Assembly: GCF_006345805.1 (NCBI RefSeq)
Contig: NC_042997.1
Span: 98,332,001-98,396,000, forward strand
DNA: 64,000 bases
Direction: 5' to 3'
Origin: Octopus sinensis
Lineage: Eukaryota
How positions within the stretch are numbered: the stretch's first letter is position 1; every line of letters begins with the position of its first letter. The notes beneath the pieces are model-generated. The model saw only the letters and a program-made list of their open reading frames with translations. It was not told where the DNA came from and made no database searches. A program made the position numbers and the translations under genes. Below, piece by piece: positions 1,211 to 64,000 of this stretch.

Positions 1211-1213
<3 letters not shown>

Positions 1214-2078
1214 AATTAAGGACTGAACACGAAAAGTGGACCGTCAACATGCTAGATATAGACGTCAAATCGCCATTCTCCACAAAAAGTCTATGTTCTC
1301 AGATCAAACTCAACACCAAACCAAAACAATAAACAAGTGAAAAATATACGAAATAAATATTTACCCATGTACTGATCTGAGAACATAGACTTTTTGTGGA
1401 GAATGGCGATTTGACGTCTATATCTAGCATGTTGACGGTCCACTTTTCGTGTTCAGTCCTTAATTGGTATATATAAATATTTTAATCTTCGGATTCTTTC
1501 TTTAATATGCTAGACCCCTGGTTCTAATTGATAAATATCAATTTTTACCCTTAATTTAATTTTATATAAATATTTGTTCTCTAACCGATAAATTAACTGC
1601 TGCTAACTATTAGCTGCAGGCTAGTTTTCTCGGGTCTCATCGCGCCAAAATAAAGACATTTGAAATATATATTTCAAATGTAATAGGCCGTACTCCATGC
1701 ACGCGTTATTTCGGTATCGTGTTGGCATTTAGTACAGCAAATTACATTTTATATGGGACCATGCTGATGATGGCTGCACTTTTCCTTGCGGAAAATAACA
1801 GCCGAAACTAAATTTAGTACATGGGTAAATATTTATTTCGTATATTTTTCACTTGTTTATTGTTTTGGTTTGGTGTTGAGTTTGATCTGAGAACATAGAC
1901 TTTTTGTGGAGAATGGCGATTTGACGTCTATATCTAGCATGTTGACGGTCCACTTTTCGTGTTCAGTCCTTAATTGGTATATATAAATATTTTAATCTTC
2001 GGATTCTTTCTTTAATATGCTAGACCACTGGTTCTAATTGATAAATATCAATTTTTACCCTTAATTTAATTTTATATA

Positions 2079-2080
<2 letters not shown>
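1211..2080 (+). mobile_element. Non-coding HHR-bearing retrozyme-like (non-autonomous PLE) element, 510 bp unit
   Basis: Direct repeats 1373-1570 and 1883-2080; inverted arm 1211-1372 equals the reverse complement of 1817-1978; internal HHR; (TA)n on both sides. Confidence 0.85.
1759..1824 (+). ncRNA. Type I hammerhead ribozyme
   Basis: ccatg-CTGATGA-t-ggctg...cagcc-GAAA-ctaaatttag-TA-catgg; all three stems pair; predicted cleavage after GTA at 1819. Confidence 0.9.
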
Positions 2081-2121
<41 letters not shown>

Positions 2122-2130
2122 ATATAATTA

Positions 2131-2602
2131 ATGATATACGATAAAATGTTTTTTGGGAAAAAATTTTATCTATCGCCAGCATATCAAAAAATGCCTTTAA
2201 AGGTAAAATTTATACATAATTTACAAGATAAGGGCAGAAGAAAAATTCTAATGCCAAATATGCCGAAACAAAAAATTGTCGATAACCATTATAATTTATG
2301 CGTCTCGAAACAAACCGATAGAAATCTCGAAAAAATTCGTTATTACCGTATTGGTCCAATTTCGGGGTTAATTCATAAGAAATTTTCCCCTCTTCAGCGG
2401 CAAATACGCGAGATATAAATTAAATACTTACTCATACCCATGGAAAAAGCAAGCACTAAGTCCTGAGCAGACTTAAGTACCCCAACGAATTTTTTAGAGA
2501 TTTCTATCGGTTTGTTTCGAGACGCATAAATTATAATGGTTATCGACAATTTTTTGTTTCGGCAAATTTGGCATTAGAATTTTTCTTCTGCCCTTATCTT
2601 GT

Positions 2603-2609
<7 letters not shown>
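2131..2609 (-). mobile_element. Truncated HHR-bearing PLE-type non-coding element with inverted arm
   Basis: 2216-2341 is inverted at 2484-2609; the HHR lies between the arms; (TA)n flanks. Confidence 0.75.
2343..2403 (-). ncRNA. Type I hammerhead ribozyme
   Basis: Minus strand: ttgccg-CTGAAGA-gggg...cccc-GAAA-ttggaccaa-TA-cggtaa. Confidence 0.9.
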
Positions 2610-2681
<72 letters not shown>

Positions 2682-11165: not shown

Positions 11166-11734
11166 TTTTATATATAGAGGGCATTATACATACATGCCAG
11201 AAGGCATTATACATACATGCCACACGCTAAGAGGGACAATTAGTCATTTCTACCAAAAATATTACTAATCCCACCGAATGCAATTTTTCAAAGTAAGACA
11301 TTTAAAAAATATAGACCTGTATCACAGTGATTTCATACTTACGTACTCATCAGCAGGCCTGAATGTATTATAAATAAACAACGACCCTGCCTCGCTTAAG
11401 CCGATCAGCTAACTGATCAACATCAACGAAGCACATGGGTGAGTTTACATATATTACATCCGGATAAATGGCAAACTTTTACGAATTGCATTTCGGGAGA
11501 GGAAAAGTTTTTTTCGGAATAAAAATTTAGCAATTAAAGACAACTACTTAATAAGGAAAACTTAACAAGAAATTGTCAGGTAGATAGCGTGAAACCCTCA
11601 TAAGAGAAAAAATTTCGAAAATAATTATTTCTTATTGAACATATTAATTGTATGTATAATGTATGTATAATGCCTTCTGGCATGTATGTATAATGCCCTC
11701 TATATATAAATTAATATGTTCAATAAGAAATAAT
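11166..11734 (-). mobile_element. Non-coding HHR-bearing retrozyme-like element, about 480 bp unit
   Basis: Internal HHR; the inverted segment 11659-11734 joins the unit end (11624-11649) to the unit start (11169-11218); (TA)n at left. Confidence 0.8.
11313..11360 (-). ncRNA. Type I hammerhead ribozyme
   Basis: Minus strand: aggcctg-CTGATGA-gtac-gtaa-gtat-GAAA-tcactgtga-TA-caggtct. Confidence 0.92.
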
Positions 11735-12095: not shown

Positions 12096-13906
12096 TAGTT
12101 TTATAGCGTGCTTTCACTTCACTACCGAGCGCAGCTCTGTGTGCCTTGGGTATGTGCTGTGATTTGTTGTGATGCTCTGATGGTTATTGTATGGAAAGTG
12201 TTCTGCGTAGGATGTGTGCAGTGCCTAGTAGTGCAATTTTCTGTATGTTATATGTGTTTGTAAGTCCTGGTGTTTTTGTTATGTATTTGTCTGAATATTT
12301 TTTTATCATGCCTAATGCACCTACTATGATAGGAATTGTTTCTGTTTTTAGATTCCACATTCTGGTTACCTCCAATTCCAGGTCTTTGTATTTTGAAAGT
12401 TTCTCCATTTCTTTTAGAGACACGTTGTCATCTGCCGGTATTGATACATCAATTAGAAAGCATTTTTTTCTTCATGATCTCTGACAACTATATCTGGTCT
12501 GTTGGCCTTAATTTCTCTATCTGTGTGTATCGGCATATCCCACAGTATGGTTGCTTTCTCATTTTCTGTGACCTTTTCTGGTATGTGCCTATACCATCTT
12601 TTTTCTGTTGTTATTTCGTAATGTTGGCATAGCTTCCAGTGTATGTAGGTTCCAACTCTGTCATGTCTGTGAATATATTCCTTCTTAGCCAGGACTGGGC
12701 AGCCAGAGATAATATGATTTATTGTTTCTTGTCCATCTCCACATATTCTGCAGTTACTTGTAATATTTCTTTTCATTACATGTTTTTGGTAATTTCTGGT
12801 GGGGAAGCTTTGGTCTTGTGCTGCAATTAAAAATCCCTCTGTCTCTGCTTTGAGTCCTGAGCTTCTCAACCATTGCTGGGATTTTTCTTTGTCTATTTCT
12901 TTTGCATTTAGTTTAGTCCAGTATTTACCATGAAGGGGCTTTTCTTGCCATCGTTTTATCATGGTTCGTTGCTGTTCTATTTTTAGTTTGGATTTCATTT
13001 GTTTTATAGCTTTTGTTGTTTCTTCATCTTCTTCTTCTTTTTCTTTATATTTGTTAGGTGGTATGATTTCTTGTTTATATTTGTCAGCTTCCTTGAATAC
13101 TGAGAACAGTTTTTTGTTTTGCTCGTGTTTTGCCGCTATTTGTATCAGTTTTCCTTCCTTCTGAAGTAGATATTTTTGCAATCCTATGGTGGTTATTTTA
13201 TAGTAGTTTTCCAGCTGTATAATGCCTCTACCACCTTCTGTAGTTGTATATATAGTCTTTCTATGTCAGATTTTGGTTGATGCATCCTAGACCCTGTCAT
13301 TATTTTTCTTGTTTTCCTATCTATTTTGGTCAGTTCATTTAGTGTCCAGTTAAGGATATTGTAGCTGTAACTTATAACTGGGACAGCTAAAGTGTTGATA
13401 CCTATTATCTTGTTTTTAGCATTGAGCTCTGTTTTTAGTATTGATCTAACTCGTCTATAATATTCTTTTTTATTTTCTCTTTCATTTGTGTGTGTTGTGT
13501 CTTATCTAGTTCATGGATTCCTAAGTATTTGTAAGTTTGGCTTTGGTCTAATTCTTTTATTTCATTGGTTTTATCTAGTGTGATGTTGCTACTCTTAACT
13601 AGTTTTCCTCTTTTCATGGTTACTTTGGCGCATTTTTCTAATCCAAATTTCATATCTATTTCTTTGGTAAATCCATGAACTGTCTTTAATAGTGTTTCCA
13701 GCTGTTTGTCATTTGCAGCGTATAGCTTTAGGTCATCCATATATAAAAGGTGGCTGATCGTTTTGCCGTAACATTTATATCCGCATCCAGTTCTATTTAG
13801 CATATCAGATAGAGGTGACAGTGCCAAGCAGAAAAGGAGTGGAGAGAGCGTGTCTCCCTGGAATATTCCTCTTCTAATGGGGATGGCTTTGGTTTTCATG
13901 AGTCCC

Positions 13907-13907
<1 letters not shown>
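12093..13907 (-). mobile_element. 5'-truncated R4/Dong-clade LINE (RT plus restriction-like endonuclease) in (TAA)n
   Basis: RRGIFQGDTLSPLLF, HLLYMDDLKLY, CRIC..ETINHIISGC, RHD, RPDIVV, EKLSKY; (TTA)n at both ends. Confidence 0.9.
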
Positions 13908-13946
<39 letters not shown>

Positions 13947-14145
13947 GAGGAGGAGGAGGAAGAGGTGAAGAAGAGGAAGAAGGAGAAGAAGAAGAAGGAG
14001 GAGGAAAAGGAGAAGAAGAAGAAGAAGGAGGAGAAGGAGAAGAAGAAGAAGAAGAAGAAGAAGAAGAAGAAGAAGAAGAAGAAGAAGAAGAAGAAGAAGA
14101 AGAAGAAGAAGAAGAAGAAGACGAAGAAGTTGAAGAAGAAGAAGA
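13908..14145. repeat. (TTA)n and (GAA)n microsatellites
   Basis: Direct inspection. Confidence 0.95.
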
Positions 14146-15097
14146 TAAATGAGAATGAAATCATCTATAGCTCTTTTCTGCGTTTCGTATTGCTACAATA
14201 TGGGAACCATTTGTGCTGAGGGAAATAGAAATACAAACAAAATGGGAACAAGCAGTTGAACTCGTTTAATAACTAAAGTCAACATTTGCCAAAAATGATA
14301 ACAAAAATGGTAATATTAATTTAAATGATAACAAAAATAATATTAAAAATGATAACAAAAATAATATTAAAAATGATAACAAAAATGGTAATATTAATGA
14401 TAATTATGGTGTTATTAGTAATGATAATTTTAGTGATAATAGTCATTATTTCAATGGCAATTTGCAATGATAGAACTCAACTTCTTTTCACATCGATTCG
14501 GCAATTCTGGTTTCTTAATTACAAAACAGAGTTTTATAATGATACTTTCTAGGTTCACGAATATATTTAAATACTTGAGCCTGGGGATATGCTTGAGTGA
14601 ATATTATTAGAGTATTATGAATATTATTTTATAATAACATCTATATTCATGCCTTTTATAAAATAAATTTCTTTTAATTTAGTGCTTTAAAAAAATATTA
14701 ACTTTAGAGCACTGCAATTATGAAATAATGGTTTTTATTACAAAGTACAATGACCATCTCTGGTCATTGAAAGATATTCCAAGTAGACAGATTTTCTTTG
14801 ATTATGTTTAGGTTGGTGTCTATATGTTCGAGGAATTTAAATGAAGACTGCTTGGTAAAGAAAGCAGTCATGGTTTCACAGATCATGTATGACATTAATG
14901 CATACGTTTGATGTTATATAATATGATTCGGACAAATATTTAATTGAAAGTATTTTCAGACGATACGATGACATATACCGAGAGGATTGCAAGGGATGTA
15001 ACACAAATTTCTGTTGATTATTATTATTATTATTATTAATTCTTTGTTAGTAAATCTTTGGTTCCATACGATGTCCATGTTTTCGATGTTTGTGGAT

Positions 15098-28200: not shown

Positions 28201-28705
28201 TATCAATAATAACAATACTAAATGAAAAAGAACTGAAAATTATTTGAGAATGATCACTGGTTAACCATCCGTGCAGGAAGTGCAAAAGATTGTCTTAACT
28301 CGTACGTCATACGTTTTGAGAAGAGCATTGTCACTGTGAATTTTCTTCCCTTTTCCACCTTCATTTTCTTTATTTAATTAGTTTTTATTTTTTTCATTTT
28401 TTCTCTATCACATAACTTTGTAAATGAACAATTTGTTGTGTTTAATTTAATGGCCTAACAATATATATATAGTGCGTTTCCCTGTCCTAGGTGTCAGGAA
28501 GGCACCCGGCAAAAAATAGAAATAGAATTGAAAGATGATAATGAAAATAACAATAATAATACTGATGATGATGATGATGATTTCTCTTACTGGACACAAG
28601 GGCCAAATCATTCAATAAAAGGAACTACTTGATATGAAGGTGGAGGGGAAAATTCAATTAAAATAGTAAAAGGAAAGGAGATTAATAAAGTGTAGTCAGA
28701 CTTAC

Positions 28706-29355
28706 AGCAAATAATTGTCCAAGTGTAACAGATAATCCGGAAAGAAGATTAATAATGTATAGGCAGACTTACGGCAAATAATTGTCCAAGAGTAGATAGA
28801 AAGTGATCGTGAGCCCATATCTGAACGTTTGGGGTCAAGGTTAGCAAAAAAAACGTAAATACCATAATAAACGTTATCATAAATTCTATACCAAAAGCTT
28901 GACCTTTGTGTTTCGGCATGAACCGTTGTAACCCCTAGTTGGCCGTGCGCCTCATGTGGGGTTAATCCGTATAAAATACCAGCGCCTGTAATGGCACCGG
29001 CGTATTGTGCTGTGATATAAAAAATTGCCCTTAACACATTGACGTTTCGCGTGACTAGCATTGCTATAGTAACGGCCGGATTCAGGTGAGCACCGCTGAT
29101 ATGTCCCACACACTGGACCAACGTGGCGGTGGCCAGTCCGAAAGTGAGTGCTATTTTCAATTCGTATTCGATGAGCCGTCTCTCATCCATGATCTGTCGT
29201 TTCTCTTCTTGTCTCCATAACGTCCAAGAACCACATCCGATGAAAGTATAAAGCAAAGTAGTAAGGAATTCACAGCGGATAGCCTTCCAAAAACTGTGAC
29301 TCTTTAAGTCCTCCTTAAGAGACATCAGCTTGCTTCGGAACGGAGTTTCGGTCAT
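28706..29355 (-). CDS. Aquaporin (AQP4/big-brain-like MIP family), first coding exon covering TM1-TM5; frameshifted as assembled
   Basis: FWKAIRCEFLTTLLYTFIGCGS, IALTFGLATATLVQCVGHISGAHLNPAVT, AQYAGAITGAGILYG; alternate frame GQAFGIEFMITFIMVFT; DPKRSD; GLSVTLGQLFA followed by a GTAAGT donor. Confidence 0.9.
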
Positions 29356-29489
29356 AGCTGAAGCTGTACTGAAATCAACAATTGATGCTGATGATGCGGT
29401 TAACGTTGCCTCTGCCGTTATTGTAGCTGTTTTCTATTTCTTTTCTGTTTTTCCTTTTTTTCGTTTCTGATTATTATACTTCTAGCGGT

Positions 29490-53539: not shown

Positions 53540-56500
53540 CACTTCCTTTCTGCTGTTTCAACCTTCTGTTAACCTTTCCCTACTAATTTAAAAAAAAAAA
53601 CGTTTCTATAGTCACATTTCGTTTCTCAGTCGCTGCCTTCATTCCTAAAGTTTTCCGCCTCCATTTCCACCCCATTCTCCATTCTCTGACCACCCTCATA
53701 CCCATACTCCGTACTACATCCTACAGCCTTATGCGCGCCACAATTCGTTCTAATCTTTCCAAAATACACACCATCGACCGTCTTCTCCCTCATGCTTTTT
53801 CCATCTTCTCTAGGTCGCCTTCCCATGAAAACACTACTTTACGTTACATAATTCATTTAAATCATCTCTTTCATCAATTTCTCGCTCACACCAAACAGCG
53901 TAAACCCCATTTACTCCTCCATTCCATCACACACGATGTCACTACCCTTTTCATTCCCTACCACTCTCCCTTCCTGATACGCTCCCTCCATCCTCACCAA
54001 AGCCCCTCCAACCCTCCTCACACATATCCGCTCCCCTCCCTCCCCGCCTTCTACTATCCCACCACCCTTCTCCACTTCCGTCTGTTATCATTCCTTCAGA
54101 TGTTCTCCCCTTTGAGACGGAGCGCTCCATTCTCAGTAGGGATCTGCACTTTATGCCCATCACTACATCCAGCAACGAATTTCGGTCTCGTGCTGATACC
54201 CACACCTTTGTGCGCCGTGTTATATTTTGTGCACTTTCCGCGACACTCCACTCGCTTCTAATGGGGAGGACTCCTTCACCGACCTGGGCCACGGAGCATC
54301 CCAGTGGACGCCAGCTCCTGGCCAGTTCCAAGCAGTCGATCTTTTTGCGGGCGCCTGCCAACGCGCTGTGGACCGGTTTAACTTTCCTAGCTATCCACGT
54401 CATTTGAACATCTCCGCAGCCGAACTCTCAGCCCTTCAATGTATCCGACGCCATTGGCGACATCCAGAGCCTTTATACGGTGATTCCTCACCACGAGGGT
54501 CTGCGTGCACTCCAACATTTCCTTGACCTTCGACCCAACCCCCATCCTAACACATTCACACTCGTTCGTCTGGCCGAACTTGTCCTCGCACTTAACTCCA
54601 CGTTCGCAGGTGATTTTTACCAGTAAGTCTCGCAAGTGGCTATGGGAACGAGAATGGGCCCCAACTATGCGAACCTGTTCGTTGGCTACGTTGAGGCAAA
54701 AACATTCTAAGTTTCACTGGTCTCAATCCCGAACTATACGGCCGTTATATTGACGACTGTATCGGTGCGACCTCGCTCTCCTGCGAGCATCTAGGCTCCA
54801 TCCTCTCTTTTGTCAAATCTTTCCATCCTACCCTCCACTTCCCCTGCACTATTTCTGACATTTCCGTCTCCTTTCTTGACATTTCGGTCAGCATTCATCA
54901 CTCCACTCTCACCACTTCCATCTACTATAAACACTCAGACTCACACTCATACCTCAACTTCTCCTCCCACTCTACACACACCAAGCTTTCCATCGCCTAT
55001 TCCCAATTCCTCCCACGCAAGCTCTGCAGTGATGAGCATGACTTTGAGACTCAGTCTCATCTCATAACTCACCACTTGTTTCCTACGTGGATATCCCCTC
55101 ACCACTATCCACACCGCCCTCGCCAGAGCACATTCGTGGACCGTGCATTTGCTCTCTACCCCGCACCCGACCCGCCGTCTTCTGTTTCCCGTCTCCTGTT
55201 TCCCTTCACGTACCACCACACTACCCTACCTCTGCAACGCACCATTCTCAGAGCCTTCCAGCGACTCCAGTCCGACTTCTCCACTTCGCACATCTTCCCT
55301 AACCGACCCACCCCTCCTTCAAACGAGCCCACAACCTACGAAACCTCTTGGTCCACATCTTCTTTCCTAACCTAACCTTCTAACCCGGCCCGTATCCCTG
55401 CTCCCGCCCACGCTGTCGCACTTGCCCTTACTTCTCCAACACCACCCTCCTCACCGGAACCCATCATCGACCATATCATATCACCGACTCCTTCGCCTGC
55501 ACTTCTAGCAATATCATCTTTGCATCTCCTGCTCTCTCTGCCTTTCTTCTCTATACATTGGTCAAACGGGACACCATTTGGCTGACCGGTTCGCGGAATA
55601 CATCCGAGACATCCGACTCGGCAATGACACCCCGGTCTCGCGCCACTTCCGCTCTACCGGCACACTTTGCAACACCATTCTGTGGTCGGATTGTCTTTGT
55701 ATAGGGGCCATTCGGACTCCCGTCTTCGCCGTGAACAAGGATTAATCTTCTCTCTTCGCTCCCTTGTGCCACATGCGCTCAACTCTTCTCCCCTCTTCTT
55801 CTAATCCTCCTCCCCTCTCCTCTCTTCCTCTCACACCTACTTCCTCCCATCCGCCTCTCCTTTCTTGTTCCGACTCCTTCTTCTCTTCACGCCTACCCTC
55901 CTTGTCTCTTCTCTTCACTCCTACCCACTCCTCCCTTCCCCCTCTCCCCTCATAGTCACCCCTCCCTCGTAAACCCACCTCTACAAAATCCAAACCCACC
56001 TTCACTATCCATCCAATCCCACCCCCACCCAATCCCTTACACCCACTCCCACATACCCTCCTTTAACCCCACCCTCAGCCTAACACACACCCACCCTTAC
56101 TTTCCCAACTCTCGTCTTCCCCACATCCCAACACTACCACACCACACCACACACCACCAAACCACACACCACCACATCACTGCACACCACCACGCACACA
56201 CTAGCACTGACCACTTCCCAGCACCCACACCATCATCCACACACCTACACATGCCCACATGCACACCTCAAGGTCACCAGCCCTCTTCCACACGTACATA
56301 CATGATCTCTTATACACGCACACATTCGTTTTGTGATTACCACTACTTTATTATCTCCCTTTCTTACTAGCTCTCCTGTGTGACCCATCTGTCCGGCTTT
56401 CGCCATGATAGATCGGTAGCCACTACACATTCTTCTCTCCCTGTTACTTTCTGTGTTCCTTTCTGTGGAAAAGCGTAGGCTCGAAACGTTAAAGTATTTT

Positions 56501-56583
56501 TCACTTCCGGAGCGTTAAACTAATACATATGTTTGTTGTCTACATCACCTGTCTACAACTTTTATTTGCATTTTTTGGTGAAT

Positions 56584-56585
<2 letters not shown>
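53540..56585 (+). mobile_element. Decayed PLE, Neptune-like (RT plus GIY-YIG plus pLTR)
   Basis: VAMGTRMGPNYANLFVGY, LYGRYIDDCIG, CRTC, LYIGQTGHHLADRFAEHIRDI; HHR-like motif at 56459-56494. Confidence 0.85.
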
Positions 56586-56674
<89 letters not shown>

Positions 56675-56682
<8 letters not shown>

Positions 56683-57301
56683 TGGCAGGGCAAGACTGCT
56701 AGGTAGTCGGCCGTATACTTGAAATAGATCATCAACGATCAAACTACATGTTAAAATTAATATTAATTTATCTCCCTCATTATTTAAATATTGAAATAAA
56801 TACGTTCTCTAGTAGCAAGCACTAACCGCAGTGAATTATTTACTGCAGTTCTTCGCTTCAGGAATTCTTTAGCGCGCCGGAACTAAGACATTTGAAATTG
56901 TATACCTAATGTAATCGGTAAGACTAAACACGTGTCTATTTTGGCACAGAAAGCTGGGGTTATTTCTTCAAATTTCATTTACACTGAACGATTGCACTGA
57001 TGAGGCAACGGACATTTGAATTATGTAAGTAATTCTTCTGTTAAAGGCCGAAACCGAGGTATGCAATTAATTCTGTTTTTTATATAAATTTGGTTCTGGT
57101 GTTCGCTGAATTTTTCCTCTAGAGAACTTTCTTTGTAGTTTGATCGTTGATGATCTATTTCTAGCACACGGGCGACTACCTAGCAGTCTTGCCCTGCCAA
57201 TATACACATATATTAGAATTTTCTCTGATTTCTCAGATTTTTTGTATGCTAGACTACTGGTTTTAAATTGATGTTAAAATAATATTAATTTATCTCCCTC
57301 A

Positions 57302-57307
<6 letters not shown>
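56675..57307 (+). mobile_element. Non-coding HHR-bearing retrozyme-like element, about 523 bp unit
   Basis: Inverted arm 56675-56748 versus 57134-57208; direct repeat at 56749 and 57272; internal HHR; (TA)n on both sides. Confidence 0.85.
56991..57067 (+). ncRNA. Type I hammerhead ribozyme with extended stem II
   Basis: attgca-CTGATGA-ggc-aacgga..gaatta/taattc..tctgtt..gcc-GAAA-ccgagg-TA-tgcaat. Confidence 0.9.
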
Positions 57308-57352
<45 letters not shown>

Positions 57353-57358
57353 TATACA

Positions 57359-57433
<75 letters not shown>

Positions 57434-57458: not shown

Positions 57459-60400
57459 GTACCGCTGAATCCTTCGCCTCATGTTTTTATTTTTATTTTT
57501 ATTTTGATCAATTTACTCCACCACCTACACCACCAAACGGTATACACAGGTGCTTATAATTATCAAGTACTCACCCCGAATTTCTACACTCAACTCACCT
57601 ACGTTGTCACTAGGATCTGATCCCACGCAACCGCGACAACCTTTAGTACTTGACGAACCCAAACATGAGGATTCAAAGGATTCACACAAACTTCTCCCCC
57701 AAGGACATACCTCTCCACTCCGACAAAACTTACACGACGACTCTCATCCACCGAACCACAGACTTTATTAGAAGAATTAGGTGGGCGGCCTACCATTTCG
57801 ATAACCCGGAGAAAAGCAACCCCAACTCTAACCAAGAAGAAATAGCACACAAGAAGATATTTAAAAGCAGAAGAAACCCACCCCCTAACTACGCACTGGA
57901 AAATTTTGAAAAAGACTTAATCGACCTCATTACCAACATCAACATTAGTAAACATAAGACCATTTCCAACACCCACTTAAGGAGCCTTAAAGATTTCCTG
58001 CATTCACTCAGGAACGACGGTAATCTTATCATACCCGCTGACAAGACGGGGAACTGGTATAGGCTAGACTACCAAACCTACAAATCGCTCATCATGAGGG
58101 AACTTAGCAAAAAGTATAAAACTACTTCTACGGATAACCTTAAGGAAATTAATTACAAAATCAAGGAAGTTATGAGCAAATTAGACCTCCTGGACAGAAC
58201 AGAACCTATTAAACCGCAAGTACCCAAAATTACTATTAAAGACCATAAGAAAGACTTCCCGGATAGTGTAGGAGTACGATTAATCTGTCCGACTAAATCG
58301 GATATCGGCAGACTTAGCAAGACCGTCCTGGACAAGGTGATCCCACACATCAAACCCCACATCCCACTCCAACTATGGATTAATACCAGCGATGTGCTAG
58401 AATGGTTTAACACTATCACCAATAGGCCCGACTACTCATTCATCCAATTCGACATAGCCAGCTACTACGCCAGTATATCCCCCATCTTACTTAACAAATC
58501 CCTTATTTTTGCCCGCAACCTTTCACTCATAGACAGAGAAAAAATTGACATAATTCTATTAGCTAGAAAAACCATAATAGAATTCGACGGTAGACTCTGG
58601 ACCAGATCCGATACCCCCGACAATTTCGATGTGGCTATGGGCTCGAGCGATTCAGCTCAGGTGACTGACTTGGTCGGGGCCTACCTGCTCAAGAAGCTTT
58701 TCTCCGAGGTACCGGATCTTCAGGGGGGTTATACAGAGACGACGCTCTCTTCATATCCCACCAACAATAGGAGTAAACTAGAAAGAATTAGGAAAAAGAT
58801 CAGGCTTTTTTTCAAATCCTTCAATCTTAAACTAGAATTTATGACCAATACTAAAATAGTTAACTTCTTAGATGTTACGTTAGATTTGAATAAGCACCTT
58901 CACTACCCATATAGGAAACCAGAAGAAACTACCAAATACATCCATACCTCTTCCAACCATCCACCCTGTATAATTAGCACCACAGTACAAGCCATCTCAG
59001 ACAGACTGACAAAACTATCCTCTAATAGAGAAATTTTCAATAATCATGCTCAACACTACAACCAAGCTCTCTATAGTGCCGGATATAACCAGAGAATATC
59101 ATACGTAGACCAACCGGGAGCGTCCGTCGACCATAAGACTCCCAATTATAATCGAACTCAGCACTCAACTCACACTACCGATAAGTCTAATTCAAACTCC
59201 AAACAACATATAGGAAATAGGCGGACTAATAGAACAGCACACAATAGTAACCCTCCCGACGAGAACAATATAGATCCTATTAGGAGAAACAGAAGGGATA
59301 ATAGTAGATTACGCAAATACATATGGTTCAACATACCTTTCAACTTAGCAGTTAGGGGTAGGTTATGTAAAAGAATATTCTCTATAATTTCCAACAACTT
59401 CCCACCCACCCACAAATATAGAAGTATCTTCTCCAACAAAACTATTAGGATTTCCTACTCTACCCTGCCCAACATGAGCTGCCTCTTAGCTAAACACAAC
59501 TATATTAATATTAGAACAGCTAGATCAAGAGCAAACCATAGCGACCAACAGAACCCCCCTCATCTAGACAGTAGGCATTATAACCAGACTGGCAACCATA
59601 ATACCCAAGCAGTTAGTAATAACACCCGCCGACACTACAGAGGAAATACTACACCCATCAACAACCAGGAGGTTACCAACGCCCCCACTCGTATTGCAAC
59701 ACCTCCGCCTAGGATTAGCAGCACACGACCGAATAATGCAATGCAATGCAACTGCAGATGTGCATCAGAGTGCCCGCTGCAGGGCGCATGCAGGGCAAAA
59801 AACGTAATATACTCATGTGAGGTGAGTACTCAATTTAACACACTCACCTATATTGGTTGCTCAACCTCCTGGAAATCCAGATACACAACCACCGGTCCTC
59901 GATGAGACATAGACATAAGGCTAACAGCACCTCCCTCTCTAAAAGAATTTGGGAATTAAAAGACAAATGCATAAGCTTCAAACTCAGATGGTCCATCATC
60001 GGATCAGCTGCACCTTATTTAAATAATAGAGCAGGATGCCAACTATGCTGTGTAGAACTCCTGAACATCTTGAAATTCAAAGACAAACACAATCTTATTA
60101 ACAAAAGGTCAGAGTTCAAACCATCCTGTATACATAAACTTATTAATACTTTAATACTACAATGCTTAGGTCTTATACCAACTCCCCCATGCTATTTCCT
60201 CCCACCCGGTGCAACCTGTCGGCTCAGCACATCCCGTTTTCCTATATGTGCGTGTGTATGTGTGTGTGTGTGTGTGTGTGTGCGTTTATGTGCACATACG
60301 CGTGTGTACATATACACATATATATATATATGTGGGCCACCTCCATCTCATGTTAAACTTTACAAAATTATATTTTTACCTTATTTTCTTATTTTATATT

Positions 60401-61830
60401 TTTTATTTTATTTTATTTTTATTTTTATTTTTATTTCTATTTTTATTTTTATTTCATTTTTATTTTTACTTTTATCCTACTTCCATGTATTTTTATTTTT
60501 AATTTTATTTTTACTTTTATTTTTACGTTTATTCTACTGCCATTTACTCTCATTTTCATTTTCATCCCTTACCTTAACTCTTATAACCCTTATAATTCTT
60601 ATATTTCATTTCTAACTATTACACTGTATTTCTTATTTTATACTGTATTTTTTATTTCTAATCTTTACCCTTACCCTCATTCTTACCCCTAATCTATCGA
60701 TTTACTCACCTATGGATCCGCCTTTTGAGTATCCGAGCGTCCGCGTACGTGTGTATGCGCATACATACATGTGCGCGCGCGTATGTGTACATGCATACTT
60801 CGATATCTTATGACTATACCCATGAGCGCGTGTGTCTCTGTGTGCGTATGTGAGTATATATATGTGCACGCACATACGGACACACAGCCGTGTGTGCGTG
60901 CGCGTATTAACATGAGTACGGGATTCTTTACATACGTTCTTATACACATCCTTTAATATCTTATACCTAGACCTAGAGACGTGGGCATATACGTGTACGT
61001 ATGTAGTGAGGGGCGCACGTATGTACATGTGAGCGTATACGCGCGTAATGTCCGTCTATATATGCGGATATTCTGTTGTATGTATGTGTGTGTGCGCGCA
61101 TGCGTGGGGTGCGTGTGGGTTTATGTACAGGTTTACACGCGAGTGCGTGTGTTTGCTTATAGACTTGGAGACGTATATGTACGCGTGTATGTGGGTGTAT
61201 GTACCCATGATGATATGTATGTACTGGAAGTCCATTTAATTCAAGGAACCAGATTAAACTCTCATCAGCTCTGATTTACGACGAAACCGTTAATTTACTG
61301 ACAGTTCTACAACTAAGTTTTATCAATCTCTGACCACCATGCTGGGTCCGCGACCTCTATACATCCCTTATCCCTACACTCTTTTACACTTTTATCATGT
61401 TTTTATCAGGTTCCTTTACCTCTTTTACTATTTTCCATTTCTATTTTTACTTTACAACATTATGCCTTTATACCCCTTTACATCTCCTTACAACTCTTTA
61501 TATCTTATCATCTACATTTATACATTTTTTTATCCCTCGTCCCGAACTCTCGCCCCTCCACCTTCACCTCTATATACGTATTTATTTATTTACATTACCT
61601 CAACATCCAAGTTTCCTCATTCTACATTGAGAGAAGAAGGAGATGGACGATTCAATTCGATGCTGCTGCCGTATTTTGTCGTACGGGAACGAGAAGATTT
61701 GCATCCCCAACCAAGAATTTCGGAACTAACACATGTCCTTGTGGAAGCTGTTGTGAGCGGCTGAAGAAGGCCACAGACATACATTATGATTTGTTATGTA
61801 TCTGTCTAATAAAGGCCCGAAACATATGTA
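57459..61830 (+). mobile_element. Young Penelope-like element, tandem copy 1 (possibly Naiad-type)
   Basis: 4369 bp unit repeated from 61828; RT plus C-terminal GIY-YIG; HHR at the unit junction. Confidence 0.9.
57550..60150 (+). CDS. PLE RT / GIY-YIG polyprotein (several 1-nt frameshifts)
   Basis: IIPADKTGN, FDIASYYASI, VAMGSSDSA, (GL)YRDD, VNFLDVTLDL, SNHPP, CNCR..CPLQGAC..VIYSC..YIG, TSLSKRIWELKD, CQLC..C.H; start and stop not fixed. Confidence 0.88.
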
Positions 61831-61835
61831 CCGCT
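61756..61835 (+). ncRNA. Type I hammerhead ribozyme at the PLE tandem junction
   Basis: agcgg-CTGAAGA-a-ggcc...ggcc-c-GAAA-catatg-TA-ccgct; predicted cleavage after 61830. Confidence 0.88.
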
Positions 61836-64000
61836 GAATCCTTCGCCTCATGTTTTTATTTTTATTTTTATTTTGATCAATTTACTCCACCCCTACACCA
61901 CCAAACGGTATAACAGGTGCTTATAATTATCAAGTACTCACCCCGAATTTCTACACTCAACTCACCTACGTTGTCACTAGGATCTGATCCCACGCAACCG
62001 CGACAACCTTTAGTACTTGACGAACCCAAACATGAGGATTCAAAGGATTCACACAAACTTCTCCCCCAGGACATACCTCTCCACTCCGACAAAACTTACA
62101 CGACGACTCTCATCCACCGAACCACAGACTTTATTAGAAGAATTAGGTGGGCGGCCTACCATTTCGATAACCCGGAGAAAAGCAACCCCAACTCTAACCA
62201 AGAAGAAATAGCACACAAGAAGATATTTAAAAGCAGAAGAAACCCACCCCCTAACTACGCACTGGAAAATTTTGAAAAAGACTTAATCGACCTCATTACC
62301 AACATCAACATTAGTAAACATAAGACCATTTCCAACACCCACTTAAGGAGCCTTAAAGATTTCCTGCATTCACTCAGGAACGACGGTAATCTTATCATAC
62401 CCGCTGACAAGACGGGGAACTGGTATAGGCTAGACTACCAAACCTACAAATCGCTCATCATGAGGGAACTTAGCAAAAAGTATAAAACTACTTCTACGGA
62501 TAACCTTAAGGAAATTAATTACAAAATCAAGGAAGTTATGAGCAAATTAGACCTCCTGGACAGAACAGAACCTATTAAACCGCAAGTACCCAAAATTACT
62601 ATTAAAGACCATAAGAAGACTTCCCGGATAGTGTAGGAGTACGATTAATCTGTCCGACTAAATCGGATATCGGCAGACTTAGCAAGACCGTCCTGGACAA
62701 GGTGATCCCACACATCAAACCCCACATCCCACTCCAACTATGGATTAATACCAGCGATGTGCTAGAATGGTTTAACACTATCACCAAAGGGCCCGACTAC
62801 TCATTCATCCAATTCGACATAGCCAGCTACTACGCCAGTATATCCCCCATCTTACTTAACAAATCCCTTTTTTGCCCGCAACCTTTCACTCATAGACAGA
62901 GAAAAAATTGACATAATTCTATTAGCTAGAAAAACCATAATAGAATTCGACGGTAGACTCTGGACCAGATCCGATACCCCCGACAATTTCGATGTGGCTA
63001 TGGGCTCGAGCGATTCAGCTCAGGTGACTGACTTGGTCGGGGCCTACCTGCTCAAGAAGCTTTTCTCCGAGGTACCGGATCTTCAGGGGGGTCTATACAG
63101 AGACGACGCTCTCTTCATATACCCCACCAACAATGGGAGTAAACTAGAAAGAATTAGGAAAAAGATCAGGCTTTTTTTCAAATCCTTCAATCTTAAACTA
63201 GAATTTATGACCAATACTAAAATAGTTAACTTCTTAGATGTTACGTTAGATTTGAATAAGCACCTTCACTACCCATATAGGAAACCAGAAGAAACTACCA
63301 AATACATCCATACCTCTTCCAACCATCCACCCTGTATAATTAGCACCACAGTACAAGCCATCTCAGACAGACTGACAAAACTATCCTCTAATAGAGAAAT
63401 TTTCAATAATCATGCTCAACACTACAACCAAGCTCTCTATAGTGCCGGATATAACCAGAGAATATCATACGTAGACCAACCGGGAGCGTCCGTCGACCAT
63501 AAGACTCCAATTATAATCGAACTCAGCACTCAACTCACACTACCGATAAGTCTAATTCAAACTCCAAACAACATATAGGAAATAGGCGGACTAATAGAAC
63601 AGCACACAATAGTAACCCTCCCGACGAGAACAATATAGATCCTATTAGGAGAAACAGAAGGGATAATAGTAGATTACGCAAATACATATGGTTCAACATA
63701 CCTTTCAACTTAGCAGTTAGGGGTAGGTTATGTAAAAGAATATTCTCTATAATTTCCAACAACTTCCCACCCACCCACAAATATAGAAGTATCTTCTCCA
63801 ACAAAACTATTAGGATTTCCTACTCTACCCTGCCCAACATGAGCTGCCTCTTAGCTAAACACAACTATATTAATATTAGAACAGCTAGATCAAGAGCAAA
63901 CCATAGCGACCAACAGAACCCCCCTCATCTAGACAGTAGGCATTATAACCAGACTGGCAACCATAATACCCAAGCAGTTAGTAATAACACCGCCGACACT
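61831..64000 (+). mobile_element. PLE tandem copy 2, runs off the window
   Basis: Near-identical to 57462-59640; contains GGLYRDDAL. Confidence 0.92.

What the first reader, a model, noticed from the sequence alone, without database searches (positions are those of the whole stretch)
56675..57307. 523 bp HHR element: a distant relative of 1211-2080 with covarying stems
It has the same architecture as 1211-2080 (inverted arm, partial tandem, TA flanks) and shared motifs in the same order: CGCGCC..AAGACATTTGAAAT..AATGTAAT before the HHR and ATGCTAGAC.ACTGGTT.TAA.TTGAT after it. The HHR stems differ completely yet still pair. Conserved unit length and short motifs without an ORF imply selection on an RNA, for example promoter or RT-recognition signals.
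Basis: partly seen in the sequence, partly recalled or inferred. Interest (0 to 1): 0.8.

Follow-up and report, generated by a model that had tools for sequence, protein, structure and literature searches.

The report
Ribozyme-bearing mobile repeat with conserved fold
A 520-base non-coding repeat carrying a hammerhead ribozyme motif has been copied, in many diverged versions, into TA repeats across this animal genome; all versions keep the same predicted RNA fold, which likely lets them borrow the copying enzyme of Penelope-type transposons, a mostly known kind of genomic parasite.

Summary
56675-57307 is an 80-bp inverted arm, one 522/523-bp unit with a type I hammerhead (HHR) and a partial repeat, set in (TA)n. 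It is homologous over its whole length to 1211-2084. Both belong to a dispersed non-coding superfamily of G000: three large subfamilies (units 511-546 bp) and several distant ones. The shared motifs are mostly strands of a conserved predicted RNA fold, not free signals. Motif A pairs across the HHR in a long rod. Motif B closes a 3' multi-branch domain (8 of 14 pairs change on both sides). Insertions end at two fixed TA-like sites flanking motif B, 93-100 nt apart. Two-armed insertions use one site at each end (33 of 34 classifiable). This is the Penelope-like (PLE) 'tail' pattern, so the element is most likely a non-autonomous PLE passenger (non-LTR retrozyme type) copied by target-primed reverse transcription. 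No matching autonomous PLE end was found in 99 PLE loci. Motif B lacks the genome's snRNA promoter core. Cleavage, expression and circles are untested. This copy is decayed (24-nt deletion in the rod). New variant of a known kind.

The parts
56586..56674 (.). (CT)n then (TA)n tract, the left target flank
   Evidence: sequence
56675..56748 (-). Inverted arm; its outer end is the fixed site S2 (exact border blurred by TA, 56669-56675)
56748..57270 (+). One unit of subfamily E2 (523 nt here, 546 in the subfamily); 34% GC, no ORF
56804..56812 (+). 5' strand of the predicted rod-closing helix; partner at 57119-57127
56873..56915 (+). Motif A: 5' strand of rod helices M (with a 2x2 pyrimidine loop) and N
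56990..57068 (+). Type I hammerhead motif: core 56997-57003, long stem II, GAAA 57050-57053, 3-bp stem III with a 2-nt loop, predicted cut after 57061
   Evidence: cleavage not tested
57085..57086 (+). Site of a 24-nt deletion in this copy that removes the partner strand of motif A (helix M)
57135..57257 (+). Predicted 3' multi-branch domain: helix Pa (57135-57138), side hairpin (57142-57155), helix Pb (57161-57167) and three inner hairpins, closed by motif B
57199..57214 (+). TA-rich hairpin holding end site S2 (about 57213), an inferred RT start
57246..57272 (+). Motif B: 3' strands of helices Pb and Pa plus the start of the terminal hairpin
57259..57297 (+). Predicted terminal hairpin of the tail
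57271..57307 (+). Partial tandem repeat (pseudo-LTR-like), ending at fixed site S1 (57307-57312), an inferred RT start
57308..57429 (.). (TA)n tract, the right target flank
1211..2084 (+). Relative of subfamily E1 (511-nt unit): inverted arm 1199/1211-1373, HHR 1759-1824, motif A 1653-1684, motif B 2017-2037, same fold and same two end sites

Best explanation
This is a decayed copy of a dispersed, non-coding, hammerhead-bearing repeat whose RNA is predicted to fold into a conserved rod plus 3' domain and is likely copied into (TA)n by the reverse transcriptase and endonuclease of an autonomous Penelope-like element acting in trans. Shown: family, architecture, TA targets, two fixed end sites 93-100 nt apart, one site at each end of two-armed insertions, variable inner ends, compensatory changes. 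Inferred steps: (1) a master locus with more than one unit is transcribed by an unknown promoter; (2) the RNA folds with the HHR at one end of the rod and the 3' domain at the other; (3) a PLE protein, probably a dimer, binds the 3' domain, nicks both strands of (TA)n and starts cDNA internally at S1 from one nick and at S2 from the other; (4) most cDNAs stop in the 3' strand of the rod, and a minority pass the HHR and run on for more than a unit, on an HHR-ligated circle or an uncleaved multimer; (5) joining the two cDNAs gives the inverted arm, partial tandem and one-sided tail. The best candidate donor is the Hydra PLE clade, but no partner was identified.
For: Three subfamilies, each filling the 40 scored candidates of its search, and more distant ones in other loci. 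Fold z-scores -4.9 to -6.3, 0 of 100 shuffles each, four copies. 3' domain: 92.7% of cells paired, 8 of 14 pairs changed on both sides, 0/500 shuffles, slid controls 18-46%. Rod and HHR stem I: 91.6%, 11 of 27, 1/500. End sites: S1 medians u66-68, tail 93, 100 and 99 nt. Among 86 HHR-sampled loci, 45 are two-armed: 33 S1+S2, 1 S2+S2, 0 S1+S1, 11 unclassified (p about 2e-9 against 0.5). 3' flank TA-like in 62 of 91 vs 10% of random positions. Only 16 of 92 motif-B-sampled loci keep an HHR core, i.e. heavy 5' truncation. Truncation hazard is 0.45-0.47 per 35 nt in the 75 nt before the HHR cut site and mostly 0-0.16 beyond +30. Repeats within one insertion share lineage variants (E1 inverted 80 both vs 17 one, 14.6 expected). 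Craig 2021 (PMC8557442; sections 3, 6, 11 and passages read) describes partial tandems, inverted 5' copies, a one-sided tail, and Hydra with canonical HHRs in (TA)n. Frangieh 2024 (PMC11167929; first two of four parts read) shows two internal RT start sites that delimit the tail, extension of both strands and a predicted dimer.
Against: No autonomous PLE with this 3' domain in 69 Hydra and 30 Neptune-type loci. The Hydra copies seen end about 35-50 nt after their own HHR. The tail is 93-100 nt, against 30-40 bp in print. Only about ten subfamilies, which are related, carry the covariation; 6 of the 11 double changes are HHR stem I. Motif A itself is mostly invariant (1 of 9 and 2 of 8 pairs; TGAAA/TTTCA 0 of 5), so a DNA-level role for it is not excluded. 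Variant sharing is weak in the older E3 (38 both vs 90 one). The structures tested were derived from these same sequences. No target-site duplication can be read inside (TA)n.
Confidence: 0.75

Rival explanations
1. Classical non-LTR retrozyme: tandem arrays are transcribed, cut to monomers by two HHRs, circularised and accumulated as circRNA, and circles are the only templates.
For: Type I HHR, no ORF, 34% GC, highly self-paired. 21 of 27 arms that reach the cut site pass it by 25 nt or more, and 10 of 149 arms exceed one unit. In a cut monomer the rod would hold the two ends together (inference).
Against: Only 3 of 86 HHR-sampled loci have two or more intact HHR cores in tandem, none in E2 or E3. 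An uncleaved multimer explains the same read-through, and Frangieh 2024 found unprocessed RNA to be the main substrate. Many arms stop just short of the cut site, which also fits cut linear templates.
Confidence: 0.35
2. The units are solo pseudo-LTRs or 3' ends of an ordinary coding PLE family that I did not sample, so there is no separate non-autonomous element.
For: The insertion pattern is fully PLE-like. The E2 HHR stem II resembles that of the neighbouring Hydra element (0 of 2000 shuffles; a comparison chosen after seeing it). Li et al. 2026 derive animal retrozymes from pLTRs.
Against: Copies longer than one unit run from unit into unit, never into coding sequence. None of 92 motif-B loci showed an extension that I recognised as coding (judged from the flanks; not screened by tblastn). 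No match at the end of 99 PLE loci. E1 and E3 stems II do not resemble the Hydra HHR.
Confidence: 0.12
3. Motif B (or A) is an internal DNA promoter of snRNA type that fires into the next unit, which would explain why partial tandems are kept.
For: Motif B lies about 58 nt before S1, the distance of the snRNA promoter core from the start, and is the best, though weak, site in E1 and E3. A newt HHR satellite has an snRNA promoter (cited in a passage of PMC2220036; the original paper was not held).
Against: The core ATCAGT stands at about -57 to -61 in 12 of 12 U2, 13 of 13 distinct U1 and 11 of 14 U5 upstream regions but is absent from the sense strand of E1, E2 and E3. Matrix score 3.9 vs 25-29 for true sites, reached by 12-25 of 100 shuffles. 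Motif B covaries with an upstream strand.
Confidence: 0.1
4. A DNA-based element (MITE or foldback) whose inverted repeats and palindromes mimic RNA structure.
For: Terminal inverted arms and TA targets.
Against: Arms are variable in length and absent from 41 of 86 loci; one end carries a tail; inner ends are ragged; G-U pairs are tolerated; an HHR covaries.
Confidence: 0.03

Closest known systems
Non-LTR retrozymes of animals (Cervera and de la Pena 2020, PMC7229834; Li, Clavereau and Pollet 2026, 10.64898/2026.07.22.740005)
   Same: Type I HHR, no ORF, low GC, self-paired unit, head-to-tail repeats, coexistence with PLEs; unit inside the 51-972 bp range of Li et al.
   Different: Mostly single dispersed insertions with at most one HHR; unit longer than the 170-400 nt circles of Cervera; inverted arms, two fixed end sites and a fold shared by diverged subfamilies are not described in the parts I read; circRNA untested.
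Penelope-like element insertions and their tail (Craig 2021, PMC8557442; Frangieh 2024, PMC11167929)
   Same: Partial tandem, inverted truncated copy, tail at one end only, two internal start sites, (TA)n targets, HHR.
   Different: No RT or endonuclease; tail 93-100 nt instead of 30-40 bp; start sites are TA-like and flank a multi-branch domain, not an AC-rich stem-loop in an ORF.
Non-autonomous Chlamys elements such as MRC1 (Craig 2021, passage in section 10)
   Same: Non-coding PLE passengers with pLTRs and head-to-tail copies.
   Different: Those share 3' sequence with autonomous families and occur in green algae; most Chlamys lack canonical HHRs; here no sequence-sharing partner was found.
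Hydra clade PLEs (Craig 2021, section 11)
   Same: (TA)n target and canonical HHR; present next door (57459-60240 and from 61600) with RW, DKT and CxCX5C motifs.
   Different: Coding; copies end about 35-50 nt after the HHR and lack the rod and the 3' domain.

Membership tests
Non-LTR retrozyme | Type I hammerhead motif | tested here: met
   not detected by Rfam
Non-LTR retrozyme | No protein coding; GC below 45-50% | tested here: met
   longest ATG frame 31 aa, GC 0.34
Non-LTR retrozyme | Tandem repeats with an HHR in two or more consecutive units | tested here: inconclusive
   not met by this copy; 3 of 86 loci, all E1, by a strict core pattern
Non-LTR retrozyme | Highly self-paired unit RNA | tested here: met
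   predicted only
Non-LTR retrozyme | Self-cleavage in vitro | not testable with these tools
   needs a transcription assay
Non-LTR retrozyme | Expression as monomeric linear and circular RNA | tested here: inconclusive
   no RNA holder listed; contigs only
Non-autonomous PLE passenger | Partial tandem, inverted truncated copy, tail at one end | tested here: met
Non-autonomous PLE passenger | Insertion into microsatellites | tested here: met
   62 of 91 vs 10%
Non-autonomous PLE passenger | 3' similarity to an autonomous PLE of the same genome | tested here: inconclusive
   none in 69 Hydra and 30 Neptune-type loci; Poseidon, Naiad and Nematis not sampled
Autonomous PLE | RT and GIY-YIG open frame | tested here: not met
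snRNA-type promoter element | The genome's ATCAGT core about 58 nt before the start | tested here: not met

The most novel reading that the evidence does not exclude
A superfamily of about ten ribozyme-bearing RNA parasites that share no end sequence with any autonomous element and recruit a PLE reverse transcriptase by shape alone: a conserved 3' domain sets a dimeric enzyme on two start sites about 95 nt apart on one circular RNA, the first defined recognition structure for PLE mobilisation in trans.
Probability: 0.3. Interest if true: 0.75.

Novelty: new variant of a known kind. Interest (0 to 1): 0.48.

Why it matters
That PLEs mobilise animal retrozymes is proposed from co-occurrence and pLTR similarity, and Li et al. 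state that the mechanism is open. Here the insertion scars of a non-coding HHR element match the PLE two-start-site chemistry, and diverged subfamilies mark out a 170-nt RNA domain with its start sites. That gives a small, defined substrate for asking what a telomerase-related PLE RT recognises and whether the two starts are coupled on one complex.

Tried and rejected
Rfam: nothing at gathering score in the window; only TA-driven matches at E<=10. No tRNA in the window. Expression: no RNA holder listed. Four of 24 runs were laid; all are contigs with guessed or unknown type, none spans the unit, and a circle junction would equal the genomic tandem junction, so this is no evidence either way. 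snRNA promoter idea tested with U2, U1, U6 and U5 and rejected. Partner search: Hydra and Neptune-type loci gave only separate non-coding inserts; Pfam names none of the four PLE frames tried. Exact pile-up of inner ends at the HHR cut: not seen; of 6 arms ending 1-6 nt past it, 3 visibly continue in a variant stem III and 1 is a junction artefact. The figure '27 of 28 pass' was miscounted and is replaced. One search used mis-indexed columns and is void; one search replaces it. Structure-aware MAFFT was not available. I first took the neighbouring PLE for Naiad or Nematis; its motifs fit Hydra. Literature searches (terms around hammerhead, retrozyme, Penelope-like, non-autonomous, Naiad, internal initiation, covariation, and two guessed taxon words) found no description of this family or of a shared fold in animal retrozymes. 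Repbase and Dfam could not be searched, and supplements were not read, so the family may be catalogued there.

Full report
1. Observation. The stretch is as described. An 80-nt arm at 56669-56748 is the reverse complement of 57134-57213 (94%), a direct repeat recurs at 522-523 nt, and TA tracts flank both sides. A motif scan of the window gave four hammerhead-shaped sites, among them 56990-57068 and 1759-1824 (no shuffle control). Rfam does not detect them. The two units share the two motifs by BLAST (E 2e-4 and 3e-3) and align end to end far above 200 dinucleotide shuffles (167 vs mean 17, max 39). The element is 34% GC and its longest ATG frame is 31 codons.

2. Family. In G000 (2.7 Gb) the finding's subfamily, E2, filled the 40 scored of 1039 candidates at 86-94% identity. 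The relative's subfamily, E1, filled 40 of 1037 at 98-100%. A third, E3, filled 40 of 1628 at 83-87% to its query. These are lower bounds, not copy numbers. Motif A occurs 130 times exactly and motif B 1246 times, with 0 for reversed controls. Units are 511, 546 and 541 nt. Motif A lies 109-115 nt before the HHR core. More distant subfamilies and intermediates turned up in loci fetched for other reasons (L134, L256, L267, L283, L295, L306, L320, L331, L332). The finding's copy differs from the E2 column majority by 15 substitutions and 25 deleted bases in 519, so it is a decayed insertion and probably not a source locus (inference).

3. The motifs are helix strands. Four real copies fold with z-scores of -5.0, -5.9, -4.9 and -6.3. 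Folding of the joint alignment and of each subfamily gives a similar layout (the E2 consensus fold differs around the HHR): a long rod with the HHR near its apex, then a 3' multi-branch domain and a terminal hairpin. Motif A is the 5' strand of two rod helices; one partner lies just after the HHR and is the part deleted in this copy. Motif B is the 3' strand of two stacked helices that close the 3' domain. On 12 copies from about eight subfamilies the three helices named in this domain are 92.7% paired and 8 of 14 pairs change on both sides (0/500 shuffles; slid controls 18-46%). On 9 copies the rod and HHR stem I are 91.6% paired with 11 of 27 double changes (1/500). Caveats: six of those eleven are HHR stem I; motif A is largely invariant, so it is paired but barely covaries; relatedness inflates the shuffle control; the structures came from these sequences.

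4. Insertion scars. I mapped 86 loci sampled through the HHR region (90 fetched, 4 dropped as the same locus or a near-identical duplicate) and 92 sampled through motif B (from the first 100 listed of 1246 places). Outer ends fall at two TA-like sites: S1 about 67 nt after the start of motif B, and S2 26-33 nt before it, 93-100 nt apart. Of 45 two-armed HHR-sampled loci, 33 have S1 at one end and S2 at the other, 1 has S2 twice, none has S1 twice, and 11 could not be classed. Single-armed loci use either site (13 S1, 26 S2, 2 other). The 3' flank is TA-like in 62 of 91 loci against 10% of random positions. Inner ends are ragged: only 16 of 92 motif-B loci keep an HHR core. They cluster in the 75 nt before the HHR cut site (hazard 0.45-0.47 per 35 nt, mostly 0-0.16 beyond +30), which fits stalling in the rod or trimmed, cut templates. 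Of 149 arms, 27 reach the cut site, 21 pass it by 25 nt or more and 10 exceed one unit. In 23 of 50 simple two-armed loci the two inner ends lie within 15 nt of each other (9.7 expected, 0/5000). Repeats within an insertion share lineage variants more than chance, strongly in E1 and weakly in E3.

5. Mechanism. These scars are those of Penelope-like elements: partial tandem, inverted truncated copy, tail at one end (Craig 2021, PMC8557442; abstract, sections 3, 6, 11 and passages). Frangieh 2024 (PMC11167929; first two of four parts) showed that a PLE protein cuts and extends both strands, starts inside the RNA at two sites that delimit the tail, is predicted to be a dimer and does not need HHR cleavage. 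I therefore infer target-primed reverse transcription in trans from S1 and S2, directed by the 3' domain. The strict pairing of S1 with S2 suggests one complex making both starts. Read-through of the HHR needs a ligated circle or an uncleaved multimer; the genome cannot tell them apart, and only 3 of 86 loci have two intact HHR cores in tandem.

6. Partner and promoter. The finding sits between a decayed Neptune-type PLE and a tandem PLE whose RW, DKT and CxCX5C motifs fit the Hydra clade. Hydra elements target (TA)n, carry HHRs, and have long open frames in G000. The E2 HHR stem II resembles this neighbour's (0 of 2000 shuffles), those of E1 and E3 do not. A covariance model of the 3' domain run over 69 Hydra loci, 30 Neptune-type loci and the window (557,506 bases) hit only separate non-coding inserts where I read the loci. 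The partner is therefore open. Motif B lies at the distance of an snRNA promoter core from S1 but lacks that core, which is nearly invariant in this genome's U1, U2 and U5 genes. Expression could not be judged.

7. Comparison. It works like a non-autonomous PLE passenger and meets the sequence-level features of non-LTR retrozymes (Cervera 2020, PMC7229834; parts 2 and 3 of 6 and passages. Li et al. 2026; first three of five parts). The multi-HHR tandem criterion is not met by this copy, and cleavage and circles are untested, so I file it as retrozyme-type, not as a shown retrozyme. The long tail, the coupled ends and the fold shared across subfamilies were not found in eight literature searches; repeat libraries and supplements were not seen. 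The labels E1-E3, S1, S2, M, N, Pa and Pb are mine.

8. Verdict. Real, non-coding, structured and PLE-mobilised by inference: a new variant of a known kind, interest 0.48.

Noticed in passing
window 57459-60240 and 61600-64000, continuing to L143:2250: Tandem Hydra-clade PLE with frameshifts. The first copy's match to the second starts at the GTA cut triplet of its own HHR (57459-57461); intact HHR at about 61765-61835 with an A-C mismatch at the base of stem II; the array ends about 50 nt after a third HHR, in (TA)n.
   Followed up: partly
window 54695-56585 (+): Decayed Neptune-type PLE (RT, CxxxxCxxC linker, endonuclease) with a degenerate HHR-like motif near 56465-56500; three TA-targeting elements are stacked in one microsatellite.
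   Followed up: partly
window 2140-2617 (-): Another HHR element (HHR 2343-2403) with a 134-nt inverted arm and a roughly 100-nt tail that folds like the E 3' domain by eye, but it is not significant with the model (E 3.9); a relative lies in L288.
   Followed up: partly
window 11190-11730 (-): A different non-coding HHR repeat (HHR 11313-11360) with short inverted ends; 95% copy in L270, older copies in L139.
   Followed up: partly
window 28702-29433 (-): Open frame that looks like an aquaporin (NPA motif), with indels at its 3' end; the name is from my reading of the translation, not from a family search.
   Followed up: no
window 12453-14160 (-): Fragments of a non-LTR retrotransposon (RT motifs and a C-terminal zinc finger/endonuclease-like part); label recalled, not searched.
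   Followed up: no
L143:3824-4831 (-): Single-exon 335-aa frame with an N-terminal membrane anchor and a DxD-like motif, resembling a glycosyltransferase; not searched.
   Followed up: no
L091-L102, L337-L350, L365-L376, L359-L364: U1, U2 and U5 genes of G000 share an ATCAGT core at about -57 to -61; the U6 array instead has an octamer-like element and a TATA box upstream.
   Followed up: partly
L139:4200-6700 (-): A 1.6-kb block holding two E3-type units and part of the 11190-11730 family is itself duplicated in tandem.
   Followed up: no
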